Shown here: positions 54,001 through 60,000 of the stretch, piece by piece
Layout of the letters: each line of letters opens with the position of its first letter
Numbering within the stretch: position 1 is the stretch's first letter
Source of the DNA: Planctomycetota bacterium
Lineage (GTDB): Bacteria; JAJVIF01; JAPKYR01
Assembly: GCA_030614715.1 (NCBI GenBank)
Contig: JAUWTM010000005.1
Location: forward strand, 415 to 64,414
Direction: 5' to 3'
Length of the DNA stretch: 64,000 nt
Made by a program: the position numbers

Positions 54001-57000
54001 CAGCATCCCGATCCGGGGCATCTTCACCTTGTAGATAAGGTTTGAGAATGTGGAGCCCATGACCCCAAAATTCACGAGGTCTGTCGATGTGCAGTCTGTC
54101 GACGCTCCCGCGTCCAGGAGCAGCACATGTCCGGTCGGTGCCGGGATGGTAATCGCTGCCGCAGGGCGTGTTACTTTCGGTAGACGCCCGAGCATCATGG
54201 TAGCTCCCATCATGAATGCACCCGTGTTACCCGCGGATACTACACCGCCAGCCTTCCCGTCCTTTACGAGACGGGTCGCGATAAACATGCTGGCTTTCTT
54301 CTTGGTTCGATATGCATGCACCGGATGGTCATCGGATGCGATTTTCATCTCGGCATGCACGATCTCAATGTTATCAGGGCTGCCGAATTCATCAAGCAGA
54401 AGTGCAAGGTCCTTTTCAGGCCCGACAAGGATGGTGGGAACCTTGCTCTCGACGGCTCCGGCGACGATCTCACGGGGTGCGTGGTCACCACCAAGCGCAT
54501 CAACAGCTATTGGTAGATGTGTTTCAGACATAGCCAAAACTCCCGGTCCATGACCGGGCCGATGGATTTTATCACACCTGTCCGGTCGCCACAATGATTT
54601 GTACGACCAGAAACGATTCCAATAACCAAGAATCCCGGTTACAATACGATAATAAGAATAGAACAAATTTAATCTGACACAAGGTCTGAGATACCAATTA
54701 TGCACAGACTTACGACATTTCTGCTTACCATACTCATTTTGCCCGTACTCTTCTCAGGAGCAGCTGGTGCGAATATCGTGATTTACGACGCAGCGGTTGA
54801 TTCATTCGGGGTTGGAGAGGGAGACAGGGTCCTGACCATCGACTACCTGTACATCGCCGATAACGCAGTAGTCGAAACCGGGACAGATTATCCCTACGGG
54901 CGTATATGGCTGGTCCTCTATGACCCGCGTCACTACGACATAAAAGATCTGATGGGTGAGGAAGACTGGTATGCCTCTCACGAGCTCGTCAGGCTCGAGC
55001 TCCCCGGACCCTCCAGCGGTGGTCGCTGGGCCGACGGCGATGAAATCGCTTTCCATAACATGGGTGTTTACGGCTGGGAGTCCGACCGCTTTGACAGCCT
55101 GTTCTTCCGTATATATGTAGAGGAGCCTTCGGACAAAATAACTGTCGATACGCTCATGTGGGGCGAGGTACAGGAGGACGACACCTACGACACCAGCCTT
55201 GACTTCGACAACGATTACATCTCGGTGAATTTCAGGACTACTGCCCTTCCCGAACTCACTCCGACACCCGAAGTGACATTAGAGGAGACCTGGATGGAGC
55301 ACAATGTGAATTTCGGGGGTTACGACGGCCTTGAGGTTCACCTTAAGTTCCAGATCGACGATTACCGCGCAAATGTCGGAAGGGTCGCGGCCTACCTGCA
55401 TTACAACCATAATGACGAATCGGTCCTCTGCAGGGTGGATGATCCCTCTTTCGCCACACCGTCAGGCTTTCTGACCGTACAGGAGGACTTCACACCGATC
55501 TACCCGTACACGGTTTTCACCGACTTCTCACTGTTCATCCCTTACGCGGCATTCCCGATCTCCGACGATTACATCGACTATTTCGCCAACGTTGAGATCC
55601 TCGACACGGAATATAACCTGCTGGCATCCGGTGTAACCCCTGTCTTCTCCGTAATGCGTCCCAAAGACGCTGAATAGCCACCGTAGCGCAGACTGCAAGC
55701 TTCTTCAAATTCCGTAGCGTCGACTTCCAATCTACCTTAGCGCAGACTGCCAGCTACATCGAATCACGTAGCGCAGACTGCCAGTCTGCAGTACCGCGGA
55801 CAGCCTGTCCGCACATGAAACCAGTAAAAACTTGACTTTTCACCCACGATATATACTATTGCACGGCCACGACGTCATTGACGCTTCACCGTTGTGGCCG
55901 TAAAATTAATATTGATACCGTTCATGGGGCATTAGCTCAGTTGGGAGAGCACCAGCTTTGCAAGCTGGGGGTCACCGGTTCGAGCCCGGTATGCTCCACC
56001 AGACCGAATTTCCAAACCTTCGACATACTCGTCGGAGGTTTTTTATTGTAATCGAATGCACTTCATGATCTGCATTCATATGCTAGAATACCGGCGCGTG
56101 ACAGGTCGTCAACTCATAAACAGGGGTATTGAATCATGCGATATTTATTGATCCTCTTTGTACTGGTCCCATTAATGCTCAGCAGCACGGTCGCTCGATT
56201 GGCCGCGACTGAAGAGATCGCCTTCACCTTCAATAACGAAACGAGCATAACGAAGTCCGAAGTCAGGGACTTAGTTGTAGCATTGTACGTTGCGGTCGAA
56301 GACAGAGACAGCGAGATGCTCAGCACGCTGCTTGACGATTTCTGGCCGTTAGAACTGCAAAACGCCTTCTTTGAGGGTGATGAGTTAACCCGGATGGAGC
56401 TTGATTGGGACTTTGATCCCGATGCGTTAACCGAAATCAGACATTACTGCTTCGGGGCCGGAGCCGAGGATGTCCCGATGTCAGCCTGGGAAGTGCTGGA
56501 CGGTGTTCTTGAGCTGGAGGGTAAGGATATAACGTACTTTAACTACCCACCGCACTCTGATAATATGGCGGATCTGCTTGGAGAAGTGATTTTTTATCCC
56601 GACACCACGTACATTGATATCAGCCTTATATTTGGCATCGACGCGTCCTTCAAGATCTGGCTTGTGGGCGAATATTACCACGGTCGTTACAACGGCCTGG
56701 AGTTATATTTCTGCCATTCTATCGAGACCGACGAATGGTTTCTCCGATCCCACTGCCATTATTAGCCTTAATACCTGTCAGGTAGCAAAGCAAGCCGAGG
56801 GATCATCTGCCCCTGCCCGCAATCCATAACCAAATGCCAACCTGCCCTGCCTGGATCCCAGAAACTGTTAATCGACCTGTGGAAAAATAGAAACGCCTAT
56901 CGAGGGAGAAAATGATAGGCGCGGTTTAGTGCAATTAGAGTCTACACGACTCCTCGTAGCCTGTCAATATATACTTGCCCAATCTCTCAATCCACGCCCT

Positions 57001-60000
57001 TATCCCTAATCTACTACCAACTTGGCACTGCCATTATTAGCCTGAGCACCCGTCAGACAGCTTCGCAAGTTTGGTTTTCGAGCCCGGTTTGCTTCATCCA
57101 ACGTCGGAGGATTTTAATTGTGCTGCCATCTACGTAACACTCTCGCATTCATATGCTACAATACCAGCAATCCGTAGGAGTTTGTATGGCGTTTCAAGCG
57201 CCATACCGGACATTCAAAAACTAAGCTTAAGGCTGACTTTGCTTCTCTTACGCCTACCCATGAAGTTCCAGCCAAAAGGGTGGGGAGAATTAATACAAGC
57301 TAGTCATTAAGCTGAAATCGGGGGATACTATGATTACAAGCGATGAATACAAAGCCCTTCGTGACGACTTATTACATGTACTGAAGTCAAGGGATCAGTT
57401 TGTACTCTCAACAATAGTGGTTACAGCAGCAATATTGGGCTGGGCATTTACAAATAATAATACCGGGAATAATGATACATGCATTCCCTATTTATTCCTC
57501 CTGCCATTAGCGGTAATAATCCCAAATACTTTTTTCTATGCCGCCCAGGTTAGGACGGGTAAAAAAATTGGAGCGTATTTACATGTTTTTCATGAAAGCG
57601 ACGAATGTTTAGGATGGGAACGCAGGCAAAGGCTTTTGAAAGATACCAAGCCTCCAGAATATTTACATATATGGTATACATCGTCCTTCACTGCACTTGG
57701 TTTAATTTGTATTTTATTATTCATAATGAAGGGTAATTACATCCAGATTCCGGGATTTATATTTGGTATAATATTTGGATTGGTCCTGGCTTTGTTGTGT
57801 TGGGCTCTAATAACACTCTGGTTATCATTTAATCAATATCCACAATACCTAAAGGCCTGGAAAAGTGTAAAAAATATTGAGCAAGAATTAAAAGAAAAGA
57901 ATAAGTTGAACGGCATACCTGATGGTCAACAACCGCCAAAATAGACGCGTTTGAGGAGCGTGTGTACGAAGTCACCAATAGTGAACTTTACGCAAAGCAG
58001 CTCGGCATTGTCCCTGGTGCTGACCTTGCCCTAGTATACTAATTTAACTTTATAAAGAACTGGAGGAATGACATGAAATATTTATCACTTCTTGTACCTG
58101 TATTCCTTTGTGTGTTTATTTCTGGAAGTGGTGTACAAGCACAAGGCATTTCTAATGATAAACAGGTAAGCTTCGGCGGTACAATTGGCTTAAGGAATGG
58201 CGAAGTTATCACCGTTATTGAGTTTCTATCACCACTGAAAACCAGTACTATACAAGGGATTTTCGAAGGTTCTCAAGTTGAGTTATATGCCAGTCAACTT
58301 TCAGAAATCTGGTTGCTGGACGAGGAATATACGTACGATACTCATACCTTAAGCGCACCCAACTCAGATTCAGGTTCCATTCAAGTCATCAATCGTGAGG
58401 GGGATTCGTTTATTATACGTGATGCGACATTTATAGGTGATGCACGATTTCCGGGTCTGTCAGGTATACGATACAGTTTTTATAATCCTATAACATTAGA
58501 AGTCTGCGAATCGATGGTTAGTGTACCAGACGTTGCATATATTTTTATAGGTGAAGATGTTGGCCACATAAGACATTGTCAAAATTGTGACAGATTTTTT
58601 CCTGAATGTTATATCTATTGCCCATACGATGCATATGAACTTGAGTGGTTCACACCAGACTGGATGGAATAGTCTGACTTGGGGTCACCGCTTCGACCCC
58701 GGTATGCTCCCCCAAACCGAAACCAAAAATCCTCCGGCTACACCGGAGGATTTTTTCTGATTACTGTATTAATTTACCTACGTCCTGTATACCGCCATGA
58801 ATATCGCTTCTGCCAGCTCATTCTGACTTTCCAGCGTGATAAATTTCCCCAGGTGCGGTTCCTCAAACGGCTGCAGCGTGAAAATTGCCGTCTCTGTATC
58901 GCTTAGTGCAACATCAAACTGGTAGTAATAGTTTTCAATCGGAGTCACTGTAATCTGCGATTCATCGACTGAATAACCCATTAGTGCCATTGCATCGCCG
59001 ATCGTGCCCTTGTTGTCCCAGGAATACTGCATGAAGTCACGAATCAAACGGTTGGTGAACCATTCATCAACCATTGTCCGCATCTCGTCGCCGGGAATGT
59101 CCATGATCTCGGCATCTGCAGCTGAAAAAACCGTGATATCGGTTCCGGCCTCGATCACCGCTCCACTGCCTGATATCGACCCACCTGCAAGCAGACCCAG
59201 GACACTGATTCCCAGCAATACTGTAGTCCCAACGGATGCTACAGTCTGCGATCCACCGCTGTCACTTGCTTCACCGGCCAGGGGTATGGGCATGCTGTAC
59301 AGTGGCATGATACTCGTGATTTCGATATCTATGTTCCCACTCCTGCCCCAGCTTCTGGCAGGTCTTGTATGATTAACAATACCTATTACCGGCGTGCCTG
59401 CTACGAGATAGGTCCTTCCCATGAGGACAACATCTTCCGCTAATACGAAAATAATTTCGTCGCCCTCTTCATTTCGCTGAGAATACAGCTGCTCCTGCAT
59501 CACAAGTCTAAGCGGCGTGCCGGCTGGTAGTGTCAGGGTACCTGGATCATCGGCTACATCATTTGTTTCCTCACTTACTTCAGGCTCTGACAAGGCATAG
59601 CCGGGGAAAACACACTGCACAAGAATTAGGATAAGAATGACACTAACTGCCTGACGGGTCATGATTGAAACCTCCGATTTTAATGTCAACTCTTACAACA
59701 ACTGTTCAATAGCCAGCTGGAGCTCGATTGTCCATGTAAGCTCCCCTACCGCTGCCCATCGACACCTGCCGTCACGGTCAAACAGAATGTACTGCGCGAT
59801 CTCGTCTTCTCCCTCGTTCCAGCCGCGTGTCGTGTTGAAGTACGATCCGTCGTAATCCAGAGGCCAGTACGTCGACTCGTATGAGTTCAGTATTACGAAA
59901 TCACTGACATCCGCGGCTTCATCCGATACGTTGATCGTCAGGTGGTAGTATTCGTCGTTCTTGTAAAGGTTATACACGTCCTGGAGGATCGGCATGGTGC

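What the first reader, a model, noticed from the sequence alone, without database searches (positions are those of the whole stretch)
55926..58757. tRNA-Ala followed by two decayed copies of its own 3' half, bracketing AT-rich cargo and lacking an integrase
The intact tRNA-Ala(UGC) lies at 55926-56001. A 43-bp degenerate copy, from anticodon loop to 3' end, lies at 57058-57100. It is followed by copies of the tRNA's downstream terminator stem (GTCGGAGGATTTTAATTGT versus GTCGGAGGTTTTTTATTGT). It is also followed by a TGn extended -10 box (GCATTCATATGCTACAATACCAGC versus GCATTCATATGCTAGAATACCGGC). A second 44-bp copy of the 3' end lies at 58678-58721, just before a strong terminator. A further ~40-bp repeat, CACTGCCATTATTAGCCT.A..ACC.GTCAG, occurs at 56749 and 57025. 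The two segments so delimited (about 1.1 and 1.6 kb) carry three small secreted or membrane proteins of unknown function. The second segment is clearly AT-rich. Direct repeats of a tRNA 3' end are the classic scars of site-specific integration. The absence of any integrase suggests decayed, tandemly accreted islands, or segmental duplication of the tRNA-plus-promoter region. The PA-like operon starts right after the last scar.
Basis: partly seen in the sequence, partly recalled or inferred. Interest (0 to 1): 0.6.

Follow-up and report, generated by a model that had tools for sequence, protein, structure and literature searches.

The report
Integrase-less islet array at tRNA-Ala
An intact alanine tRNA gene is followed by two, possibly three, decayed copies of its own 3' part that bracket small cargo genes: the ordinary scars of mobile elements that inserted one after another into the tRNA gene and no longer carry their integrase.

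Summary
tRNA-Ala(UGC) lies at 55926-56001. Its 3' part is repeated at 57055-57121, with half a terminator and then a promoter copy to 57168. It is repeated again at 58678-58755, with spacer and a full terminator. All repeats score far above shuffled controls. Each unit reads tRNA 3' part, terminator, TG-extended -10 promoter, cargo. The last copy has a terminator but no promoter, which fits a displaced native tRNA end.

Segment B (ORF2 and ORF3) is a compositional outlier: GC 39.4%, 0.7th percentile. It is absent from the closest relative, which carries other AT-rich cargo there. Segment A (ORF1) has ordinary composition and is shared with that relative.

No integrase or integrase remnant lies in the locus. 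In this bacterial class, however, 16 of 22 large serine recombinase loci abut a tRNA 3' end. One relative has an intact ~20.5-kb such element, with a perfect 64-nt repeat, in the orthologous tRNA-Ala. The window's own genome has one at tRNA-Pro, a truncated remnant, and at least three more integrase-less tRNA islets.

Verdict: tandem, decayed or cargo-only islets left by site-specific integration. This is a new member of a known kind, of modest interest.

The parts
55926..56001 (+). Intact tRNA-Ala(UGC). It has the G3:U70 identity pair and an encoded CCA. This is copy 1, the attL-side junction.
   Evidence: ARAGORN. Rfam RF00005, 67.8 bits.
56014..56041 (+). T1, an intrinsic terminator after the tRNA: stem CCTTCGAC/GTCGGAGG followed by a T-run.
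   Evidence: Terminator scan. Homologous to the terminator in L040 and to T2 and T3.
56072..56095 (+). P1, a TG-extended -10 promoter-like box (TGcTAGAAT, -10 at 56084-56089) upstream of ORF1.
   Evidence: 22/24 identical to 57145-57168. The same box (ATATGCTACAATACCAGCA) precedes the ORF1 ortholog in L040. Promoter function is inferred, not tested.
56136..56765 (+). ORF1, 209 aa, with a signal peptide and unknown function. This is the cargo of unit 1.
   Evidence: ORF list. Homologs at 66% and 51% identity; the 66% one sits after tRNA-Ala in L040. No Pfam, PHROG or PADLOC match.
56751..56794 (+). D4a, a 44-nt repeat covering the last 13 coding nt of ORF1, its stop codon, and 3' flank.
   Evidence: 35/44 identical to 57026-57069.
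56789..56843 (+). Possible fourth, very decayed copy of the tRNA 3' part plus spacer (copy 1.5).
   Evidence: Collinear alignment to 55960-56020 scores 29 against 19.0 +/- 3.4; 1.4% of shuffles reach it. Weak evidence.
57026..57069 (+). D4b, the second copy of the 44-nt repeat. It runs directly into copy 2.
57055..57121 (+). Copy 2. It holds a decayed tRNA-Ala part from the anticodon arm to the 3' end (57055-57100, several substitutions and short indels) and the right arm only of the terminator (57102-57121). 29 nt of spacer and left arm are deleted.
   Evidence: Alignment score 52 against 20.8 +/- 3.8, 0 of 500 shuffles. Repeat families D5 and D7.
57134..57168 (+). P2, a promoter-like site: GTAACA, 17 nt, TACAAT, with TG upstream. 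It is a copy of P1 and lies upstream of ORF2-ORF3.
   Evidence: Promoter scan. 22/24 identical to P1. Function is inferred.
57330..57944 (+). ORF2, 204 aa, predicted multi-pass membrane protein of unknown function. It is cargo of unit 2 and is AT-rich.
   Evidence: Three homologs (63%, 63% and 40% identity), all on short AT-rich contigs. No significant family match.
58073..58672 (+). ORF3, 199 aa, with a signal peptide, a beta-rich body and a Cys-rich C-terminus. Function unknown. It is cargo of unit 2.
   Evidence: About 50 distant homologs by HMMER. AF2 model has pLDDT 83.6, with no significant PDB fold match.
58678..58755 (+). Copy 3. It holds tRNA positions 40-76 (58678-58714, five substitutions, including changes in the T arm and at the discriminator base), a homologous spacer, and the strong bidirectional terminator T3 (58725-58755). 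No promoter copy follows. It is interpreted as the displaced native tRNA end.
   Evidence: z = 28.7. Terminator scan. Multiple alignment.
58778..59689 (-). Convergent flanking gene (303 aa), the last gene of the PA-like operon. It marks the right-hand chromosomal flank and is absent from L040.

Best explanation
The locus is a tandem array of two, possibly three, integrase-less islets. They were left by site-specific integration of mobile elements into the 3' half of tRNA-Ala(UGC).

An element of this kind carries a replacement copy of the tRNA 3' part followed by its own terminator. Recombination inside the tRNA gene rebuilds a working tRNA at the left junction. It pushes the previous 3' end to the far side of the element.

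Repeated events gave this order:
- tRNA, T1, P1, ORF1
- (a very decayed copy)
- copy 2, half of T2, P2, ORF2, ORF3
- copy 3, T3

The last copy, which has no promoter, is the original tRNA end with its native terminator. That terminator also closes the convergent PA-like operon. The promoter copies P1 and P2 drive the cargo genes.

The responsible enzyme was most likely a large serine recombinase of the tRNA-abutting type common in this class. Its gene has since been deleted, or was supplied in trans. The displaced copies now decay neutrally.

Shown: the repeats, the unit architecture, the foreign composition of segment B, locus variability among relatives, and intact recombinase elements at the orthologous tRNA and elsewhere in the same genome.

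Inferred: the identity of the recombinase, the order of events, promoter activity and cargo function.
For: - The repeats are statistically solid.
- The architecture fits: c-T-P occurs twice, then c-T without P.
- Segment B has GC at the 0.7th percentile and tetranucleotide distance at the 99.1th percentile.
- The nearest relative L040 (flanking proteins 85-88% identical) has tRNA-T-P-ORF1. After that it carries a different AT-rich ~1.2-kb cargo. It lacks ORF2, ORF3, copy 2, copy 3 and the 303-aa gene.
- Five other genera keep the upstream synteny but differ after the tRNA.
- G002 has, at the orthologous fabH-plsX|tRNA-Ala(UGC) locus, a reverse-oriented large serine recombinase abutting the tRNA. 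The recombinase has Resolvase, Recombinase and Zn-ribbon domains. The element supplies its own terminator. A perfect 64/64-nt tRNA repeat lies 20.5 kb away, followed by a native-type terminator.
- The flank after that distal repeat resembles the flank after the tRNA in G007, p about 0.02. The proximal flank does not, p about 0.49.
- In the class, 16 of 22 such recombinase loci abut a tRNA.
- The window's own genome has such a recombinase overlapping tRNA-Pro(UGG), with a perfect 51-nt distal copy on contig C153.
- It also has a truncated recombinase remnant with a partial tRNA-Pro on C66.
- It has integrase-less islets at tRNA-Gln (65/66-nt repeat, 1.4 kb), tRNA-Ser (35/37, 1.2 kb, TIR protein) and tRNA-Pro(CGG) (two partial copies).
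- The same pattern is described for Dehalococcoides ssrA islands and for tycheposons, and as a general source of tRNA fragments.
Against: - No recombinase gene, fragment or conserved recombinase 3'-end motif survives in 55600-59000.
- No tRNA-Ala-specific recombinase is in this 87%-complete assembly.
- Segment A is compositionally ordinary. ORF1 diverges from its L040 ortholog at the DNA level about as much as the flanks do (74% against 78-79%). Unit 1 is therefore old, yet it sits nearest the tRNA, where the newest element is usually expected. So unit 2 must have entered a distal site, or the order is otherwise unexplained.
- L040 shows no significant distal tRNA copy.
- P1 and P2 share a ~30-nt spacer that L040 lacks, which a local duplication would also explain.
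- No empty site or excised form of this array was seen. The only other assembly is 99.93% identical.
Confidence: 0.7

Rival explanations
1. Local segmental duplication. The block running from the tRNA 3' half through the terminator to the promoter was copied once or twice by replication slippage or unequal crossing-over. The AT-rich genes then arrived by an unrelated route, such as illegitimate recombination after DNA uptake. They would have used a duplicated promoter by chance or by selection.
For: - Copy 2 includes the promoter, and its ~30-nt terminator-promoter spacer layout is shared with copy 1 but not with L040.
- The D4 repeat shows that short duplications happened here.
- This genome holds other AT-rich integrase-less islets away from tRNAs. 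One at 44323-46416 has no flanking repeats.
Against: - The copies begin inside the tRNA, at the anticodon arm, and run to its 3' end and beyond, as att scars do.
- The terminal copy lacks the promoter.
- At least three other tRNAs of this genome show the same scar, and two intact recombinase elements produce such repeats.
- A plain tandem duplication would also have duplicated ORF1, yet only its last 13 coding nt and stop codon recur.
Confidence: 0.14
2. The islets were never autonomous. They are small cassettes (tRNA 3' mimic, terminator, outward promoter, one or two genes) without an integrase. Large serine recombinases encoded by bigger co-resident elements insert and remove them in trans. 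They would be CIME-like or integron-like cassettes anchored on tRNA genes.
For: - At least four tRNA loci of one genome carry 1.2-2.7-kb units with intact cargo genes and no recombinase fragment.
- Two of them have nearly perfect repeats (65/66 and 35/37), which leaves little time for clean loss of an integrase.
- The forward-reading promoter directly after the terminator recurs in units 1 and 2.
- A recombinase-bearing element is present in the same genome.
Against: - Copies 2 and 3 here are decayed, with indels and changes in the T arm, so they are unlikely to be active sites.
- A truncated recombinase remnant on C66 shows that in-situ decay does occur.
- No identical cassette was found at a second place or in another genome.
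- No cognate tRNA-Ala recombinase is in the bin.
Confidence: 0.12
3. Chance similarity or an assembly artefact of a metagenome-assembled contig.
For: The genome is a 254-contig bin.
Against: - z-scores are 12 to 29 against shuffles.
- The copies are diverged, so they would not mislead an assembler.
- A second public assembly has the same arrangement, with 6 mismatches in 8394 bp, none inside the array.
Confidence: 0.02

Closest known systems
Dehalococcoides ssrA genomic islands (McMurdie et al. 2011, PMC3146451)
   Same: - Tandem islands lie downstream of a tRNA-like gene, each bounded by a direct repeat of its 3' end.
- In intact units the integrase is a ~540-aa serine recombinase on the reverse strand next to attL.
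- 15 islands lack the integration module and were proposed to be cis-mobilizable or fixed.
   Different: - The target here is tRNA-Ala, and other tRNAs in the same genome, not tmRNA.
- Repeats are 37-66 nt rather than 20 bp.
- Units here are only 1-1.6 kb, with one or two genes.
- Here the terminator and a promoter are repeated as well.
- No recombinase is present in this array.
Cis-mobilizable elements (CIMEs) and accretion at att sites of streptococcal ICEs/IMEs (reviewed in PMC5704250)
   Same: - Islets are flanked by attL- and attR-like repeats.
- They have no recombination or transfer genes.
- They are arranged in tandem.
   Different: - Mobilization by a cognate integrase is shown for CIMEs and untested here.
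- The copies here are decayed, so the array is probably fixed.
- The presumed enzyme class is a serine, not a tyrosine, recombinase.
Tycheposons and their remnants in Prochlorococcus islands (bioRxiv 10.1101/2020.12.28.424599)
   Same: - Elements integrate at tRNA genes.
- Successive integrations are separated only by partial tRNAs.
- Degenerated elements and extra partial tRNAs are scattered in the island.
- A minority use large serine recombinases.
- Cargo includes defence and niche genes.
   Different: - This is a different, uncultured lineage.
- No integrase fragments are left here.
- No homology to tycheposon modules was tested or claimed.
Classical tRNA-gene integration of phages and islands (Reiter 1989 and Williams 2002, as cited in PMC9897764)
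   Same: - An intact tRNA sits at one end, and a partial 3' copy in the same orientation sits at the other.
- Copies start in the anticodon-arm region.
   Different: - No integrase is present.
- Two or three nested units occupy under 3 kb.

Membership tests
tRNA-gene integration scars (attL/attR of integrative elements) | An intact tRNA at one boundary, and a same-strand partial copy reaching the tRNA 3' end at the other. | tested here: met
   copies at 57055-57100 and 58678-58714, same strand, both reaching the CCA end.
tRNA-gene integration scars (attL/attR of integrative elements) | The enclosed DNA is variable or absent in related genomes. | tested here: met
   L040 lacks unit 2 and carries other cargo. 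Five genera differ after the tRNA. No strictly empty site of this array was found.
tRNA-gene integration scars (attL/attR of integrative elements) | The enclosed DNA is compositionally foreign. | tested here: inconclusive
   Met for segment B (GC at the 0.7th percentile, tetranucleotide distance at the 99.1th). Not met for segment A (13th and 36th percentiles).
tRNA-gene integration scars (attL/attR of integrative elements) | An integrase gene lies inside the element. | tested here: not met
   No PF00589 or PF00239 match in the region. tblastn with two lineage recombinases finds only the antisense of the tRNA. The motif search was negative.
tRNA-gene integration scars (attL/attR of integrative elements) | Excision or a circular form, or an attB-like empty site, in the population. 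| not testable with these tools
The only other assembly is 99.93% identical.
Cis-mobilizable element (CIME) | Flanked by att sites and devoid of recombination and transfer genes. | tested here: met
Cis-mobilizable element (CIME) | The att sites are still recognised by the integrase of a related co-resident element. | not tested
   The copies carry indels and substitutions. The recombinase in this genome sits at tRNA-Pro, not tRNA-Ala. This needs a recombination assay.
Large-serine-recombinase integrative element targeting a tRNA | A recombinase with Resolvase, Recombinase and Zn-ribbon domains, convergent with and abutting the target tRNA. | tested here: not met
   Absent from the window locus. 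Present at the orthologous tRNA-Ala in G002 and at tRNA-Pro in the window's own genome. The window array is therefore at most a remnant, not a member.
Large-serine-recombinase integrative element targeting a tRNA | Produces long direct repeats of the tRNA 3' part, with an element-borne terminator after the rebuilt tRNA. | tested here: met
   In the intact elements: 64/64 nt (G002) and 51/51 nt (C188/C153), with an element-borne terminator at attL and a native-type terminator after attR. The window copies have the same layout.
Plain tandem or segmental duplication | The whole block between the repeat starts is duplicated, and the copies are equivalent in content. | tested here: not met
   Only 44 nt around the ORF1 stop recur. 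The cargo of the units is unrelated. The last copy lacks the promoter.

The most novel reading that the evidence does not exclude
The mobile unit is the small cassette itself: a tRNA 3' mimic, a terminator, an outward promoter and one or two genes, without an integrase. tRNA-specific large serine recombinases encoded on larger co-resident elements would insert and excise such cassettes in trans. tRNA genes of this uncultured lineage would then work as integron-like cassette docks.
Probability: 0.12. Interest if true: 0.7.

Novelty: new member of a known kind. Interest (0 to 1): 0.3.

Why it matters
The array documents how small accessory genes accumulate at tRNA genes in a poorly known, uncultured bacterial class. 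The main integrases there appear to be tRNA-abutting large serine recombinases, not the usual tyrosine integrases.

It also gives annotators a clean example of tRNA fragments, a dead terminator half and a duplicated promoter that should not be called as genes.

If the cassettes turned out to be trans-mobilized, this would be a new cassette-capture system. As it stands, the locus is an ordinary island remnant.

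Tried and rejected
- **D4 as the 5' part of a whole-tRNA pseudogene:** not significant, p = 0.32 and 0.45.
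- **D4 as a homolog of the element arm next to the distal repeat in G002:** not significant, p = 0.24 and 0.35.
- **Recombinase remnants in the window:** tblastn with the C188 and G002 recombinases found only the antisense of the tRNA, with an in-frame stop. The conserved 3'-end motif ATCAGGGTTCCAGA is absent from the locus.
- **A decayed distal tRNA copy in L040:** p = 0.48 and 0.096, inconclusive.
- **Empty-site or polymorphic variants:**
  - The metagenome scan with the upstream protein returned only L040.
  - Exact-protein look-ups returned only a near-identical second assembly, which also has the tRNA-Gln islet.
  - One look-up found nothing.
- **Viral contigs:** a scan for the tRNA-Ala 3' end gave 0 hits.
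- **Cargo function:**
  - No significant Pfam, PHROG or PADLOC match for ORF1-3.
  - The ORF1 model is unusable, pLDDT 39.
  - The ORF3 model is good, pLDDT 83.6, but has no significant PDB fold match; best TM is 0.36.
  - No cargo homologs in any fetched recombinase island.
- **Taxonomy:** the genome-contig scan named only 'uncultured bacterium' for the one family member returned.
- **The AT-rich insertion at 44323-46416:** it has no flanking direct repeats.

Full report
**1. What is there**

ARAGORN finds one tRNA in the window, tRNA-Ala(UGC) at 55926-56001. Rfam's tRNA model scores it 67.8 bits.

- **Copy 3.** 58678-58721 is 39/44 identical to tRNA positions 40-76 plus 8 nt of trailer. The alignment continues through a homologous spacer (ACCGAA..CCAAA) and a terminator to 58755. 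It scores 72 against 16.0 +/- 1.9 for shuffles.
- **Copy 2.** It aligns from the anticodon arm to the 3' end (57055-57100, with substitutions and short indels). A 29-nt deletion has removed the spacer and the left terminator arm. It resumes with the right terminator arm (57102-57121). After a ~25-nt poorly conserved stretch comes a 22/24 copy of the TG-extended -10 box (57145-57168). The whole alignment scores 52 against 20.8 +/- 3.8.
- **D4 repeat.** A 44-nt repeat (56751-56794 and 57026-57069, 35/44) covers the last 13 coding nt of ORF1, its stop codon and 3' flank. The second copy runs straight into copy 2.
- **Possible copy 1.5.** Behind the first D4 copy there is a weak collinear match to the tRNA 3' part and spacer (56789-56843, p about 0.014). 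This may be a fourth, nearly erased copy.

The consensus scan calls T1 (56014-56041), T3 (58725-58755, bidirectional) and P2 (GTAACA-17-TACAAT with TG).

**2. Architecture**

Aligning the copies with the ortholog from the nearest relative shows a repeated unit:

- unit 1: tRNA 3' part, spacer, T1, P1, ORF1;
- unit 2: tRNA 3' part, half of T2, P2, ORF2, ORF3;
- end: tRNA 3' part, spacer, T3, with no promoter, followed 23 nt later by the stop of a convergent 303-aa gene.

Copy 3 carries changes in the T arm and at the discriminator base. It cannot be part of a working tRNA and looks like a displaced end.

**3. Composition and cargo**

- Segment B (57101-58677) has GC 39.4% against 51.7% for the genome. 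That is the 0.7th percentile of same-size windows, and its tetranucleotide distance is at the 99.1th percentile.
- Segment A (56002-57054) is unremarkable: GC 48.4%, tetranucleotide distance at the 36th percentile.
- ORF1 (signal peptide), ORF2 (multi-pass membrane protein) and ORF3 (signal peptide, beta-rich, Cys-rich tail) have no paralogs in the genome. They have no significant Pfam, PHROG or PADLOC match.
- ORF1 has two homologs, ORF2 has three, and ORF3 has only distant ones.
- The ORF3 model is confident (pLDDT 83.6) but matches no solved fold. The ORF1 model failed.
- Cargo function therefore stays unknown. The genes look real because homologs exist and the frames are intact.

**4. Relatives**

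- A second public assembly is 99.93% identical over 8.4 kb and has the same array.
- **L040, the nearest different relative.** This JGI contig has upstream protein 88% and downstream PKD protein 85% identical.
  - It shows an identical tRNA body, a related terminator, the same -10 box and an ORF1 ortholog (66% aa).
  - After ORF1 comes a different AT-rich ~1.2-kb segment with a 304-aa ORF. Then comes the convergent PKD gene directly.
  - It has no ORF2, ORF3, copy 2, copy 3 or 303-aa gene.
- DNA identity between the two is 78% and 79% in the flanks and 74% in ORF1. Unit 1 was therefore probably already present in their common ancestor, while unit 2 is lineage-specific.
- Five more distant genera conserve fabH-plsX-(p325)-tRNA-Ala. 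Each has different genes after the tRNA and no tRNA repeats within 2.5-9.7 kb. The 3' side of this tRNA is a recurrent insertion point.

**5. Where are the integrases?**

The window locus has none.

*Tyrosine recombinases.* The genome has two Xer-like tyrosine recombinases and a third one on contig C154. That third one is conserved at 66-76% identity across the family.

*Serine recombinases.* These are more telling. In the 14 genomes of the class there are 22 Resolvase-domain loci. 16 of them have a convergent tRNA abutting the recombinase 3' end. The targets are Arg, Ala, Met, Asn, Gln, Pro and Ser tRNAs.

*The element in the window's own genome.*
- A 522-aa recombinase with Resolvase, Recombinase and Zn-ribbon domains overlaps tRNA-Pro(UGG) on contig C188.
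- A perfect 51-nt copy of that tRNA (positions 28-78) lies on another contig, C153. This is the distal boundary of a split element.

*The element in relative G002.*
- The orthologous tRNA-Ala(UGC), directly after fabH-plsX, is abutted by a 498-aa recombinase of the same type.
- It is followed by an element-borne terminator. The element carries a DnaB-like helicase, a tyrosine recombinase, a clamp-like protein, DUF2958, a PLD-SNF2 helicase and a PD-(D/E)XK nuclease.
- It ends 20.5 kb away at a perfect 64/64-nt copy of tRNA positions 13-76, followed by a native-type terminator.
- The 160 nt after that distal copy resemble the DNA after the tRNA in congeneric G007, p about 0.02. The proximal flank does not, p about 0.49. 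G007 therefore approximates the empty site.

Elements of this lineage thus do produce long tRNA repeats, and they bring their own terminator. This is the pattern seen in decayed form in the window.

**6. The array is not alone in this genome**

A scan of all 49 tRNAs for downstream copies of their own 3' ends found:

| tRNA (contig) | Repeat | Enclosed segment | Cargo |
|---|---|---|---|
| tRNA-Gln(UUG) (C155) | 65/66 nt | 1397 bp, GC 39% | one lambda-Ea47-like gene |
| tRNA-Ser(UGA) (C131) | 35/37 nt | 1185 bp, GC 39% | one TIR-domain gene matching a PADLOC TIR-TM model |
| tRNA-Pro(CGG) (C99) | two partial copies | first copy 2.1 kb downstream | DUF4268 and GNAT genes |
| tRNA-Trp (C11) | decayed copy | 1.9 kb | not characterised |

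None contains a recombinase.

Contig C66 holds an intermediate stage. It has the last 7 nt of tRNA-Pro, 240 nt of recombinase 3' end (81 aa, 86% identical to the C188 enzyme), one gene and a partial tRNA-Pro. In-situ truncation of these elements is therefore documented.

Earlier notes on this genome list several more small AT-rich integrase-less islets away from tRNAs. I checked one in this window, 44323-46416. It is as deviant as segment B but has no flanking repeats. Not all small islets here need the tRNA route.

**7. Interpretation**

The best reading (0.70) is a tandem array of islets left by site-specific integration into tRNA-Ala. The enzyme was most likely a large serine recombinase. 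The integrase was later lost, and the displaced tRNA ends are decaying.

The unit structure fits this reading, in particular the lack of a promoter after the last copy. Segment B's foreign composition, the variability of the site and the intact element at the orthologous tRNA all fit too.

Some points do not fit neatly. The older-looking unit 1 lies nearest the tRNA, although newcomers usually enter at the intact tRNA. Unit 2 would then have entered a distal copy, or the history is more complex. P1 and P2 share a spacer layout that L040 lacks, which a local duplication would also give.

The rivals are:
- plain segmental duplication plus unrelated acquisition of the AT-rich genes (0.14);
- trans-mobilized integrase-less cassettes (0.12), favoured somewhat by the near-perfect repeats around single genes at tRNA-Gln and tRNA-Ser;
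- artefact or chance (0.02).

**8. Comparison with known systems**

The closest described case is the Dehalococcoides ssrA islands. There, tandem islands are bounded by 3'-end repeats, a ~540-aa serine recombinase sits on the reverse strand next to attL, and 15 islands lack the integration module and were discussed as cis-mobilizable or fixed. Tycheposon islands show the same stacking and partial-tRNA debris. tRNA fragments from integration are known to be pervasive.

The window array works like such remnants. It fails the membership test for an integrative element because it has no integrase. It meets the structural definition of a CIME, but the functional part is untested.

**9. Verdict**

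The locus is a new member of a known kind, and interest is modest (0.3).

Noticed in passing
G000 contigs C155:335-1872, C131:14396-15705, C99:6901-10555, C11:8510-10579: Other tRNAs of the same genome carry a same-strand partial copy of their own 3' part 1.2-3.5 kb downstream, with no integrase between. They are Gln-UUG, Ser-UGA, Pro-CGG (two copies) and Trp (decayed). Cargo includes a lambda-Ea47-like protein, a TIR-domain protein (PADLOC TIR-TM), and a DUF4268 protein with a GNAT.
   Followed up: partly
G000 C188:11267-12835 with tRNA-Pro(UGG) 11278-11355; C153:18224-18274: The reading frame of a large serine recombinase gene runs antisense through the whole tRNA-Pro gene. A perfect 51-nt copy of the tRNA (positions 28-78) on another contig marks the far end of the element. 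The same antisense overlap occurs at tRNA-Ala in relative G002.
   Followed up: partly
G000 C188 end (26901-27257) and C154 (12000-22520): The gene order DUF2958, clamp-like, 97 aa, tyrosine recombinase in G002 suggests that C188 continues into C154. The paralogous PA-like operon on C154 (1871-aa gene plus PKD/redoxin gene) would then be cargo of the tRNA-Pro island. A 71-aa fragment 98.6% identical to the recombinase lies just beyond that operon (C154:12154-12366).
   Followed up: partly
G000 C66:7064-8632: A truncated element remnant: the last 7 nt of tRNA-Pro, 240 nt of recombinase 3' end (81 aa, 86% identical to the C188 enzyme), one 383-aa gene, and a partial tRNA-Pro (positions 17-78, 89% identical).
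   Followed up: partly
window 58778-59689 (-): The 303-aa gene treated elsewhere as an operon partner of the PA-like gene is absent from the nearest relative L040. There the PKD/redoxin gene is the last gene. In other genera its homologs are not next to PA-like or PKD genes.
   Followed up: partly
window 55680-55787; L040 639-700: GC-rich repeat units (ACCGTAGCGCAGACTGC...) with hairpins lie upstream of the tRNA-Ala promoter. They are conserved in kind, but not in copy number, in L040.
   Followed up: no
G000 C169, C214, C217 and window 56014-56041: Several unrelated tRNAs are followed by near-identical terminators of the form ACCCTTCGnC...GTCGAAGGGTTTTTT. L040 and the native flank in G002 have the same type.
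   Followed up: no
window 44323-46416: A second AT-rich two-gene insertion has GC 38.1% (0.4th percentile) and tetranucleotide distance at the 99.4th percentile. It has no flanking direct repeats and no tRNA, so it probably arrived by another route.
   Followed up: partly
L040 825-905 versus window 55926-56010: The tRNA-Ala body is identical in the two relatives. The window gene encodes CCA, while the L040 gene runs ...GCTCCA|AATCC without it. The two tRNA-Gln(UUG) versions in G000 differ in the same way.
   Followed up: no
G000 C154:20246-21337 and relatives G001, G002, G006, G007, G008: A third tyrosine recombinase is 66-76% identical across most genera of the family (54% in G002), more conserved than PlsX. 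In G002 it sits inside the tRNA-Ala island, and some genomes have two copies.
   Followed up: partly
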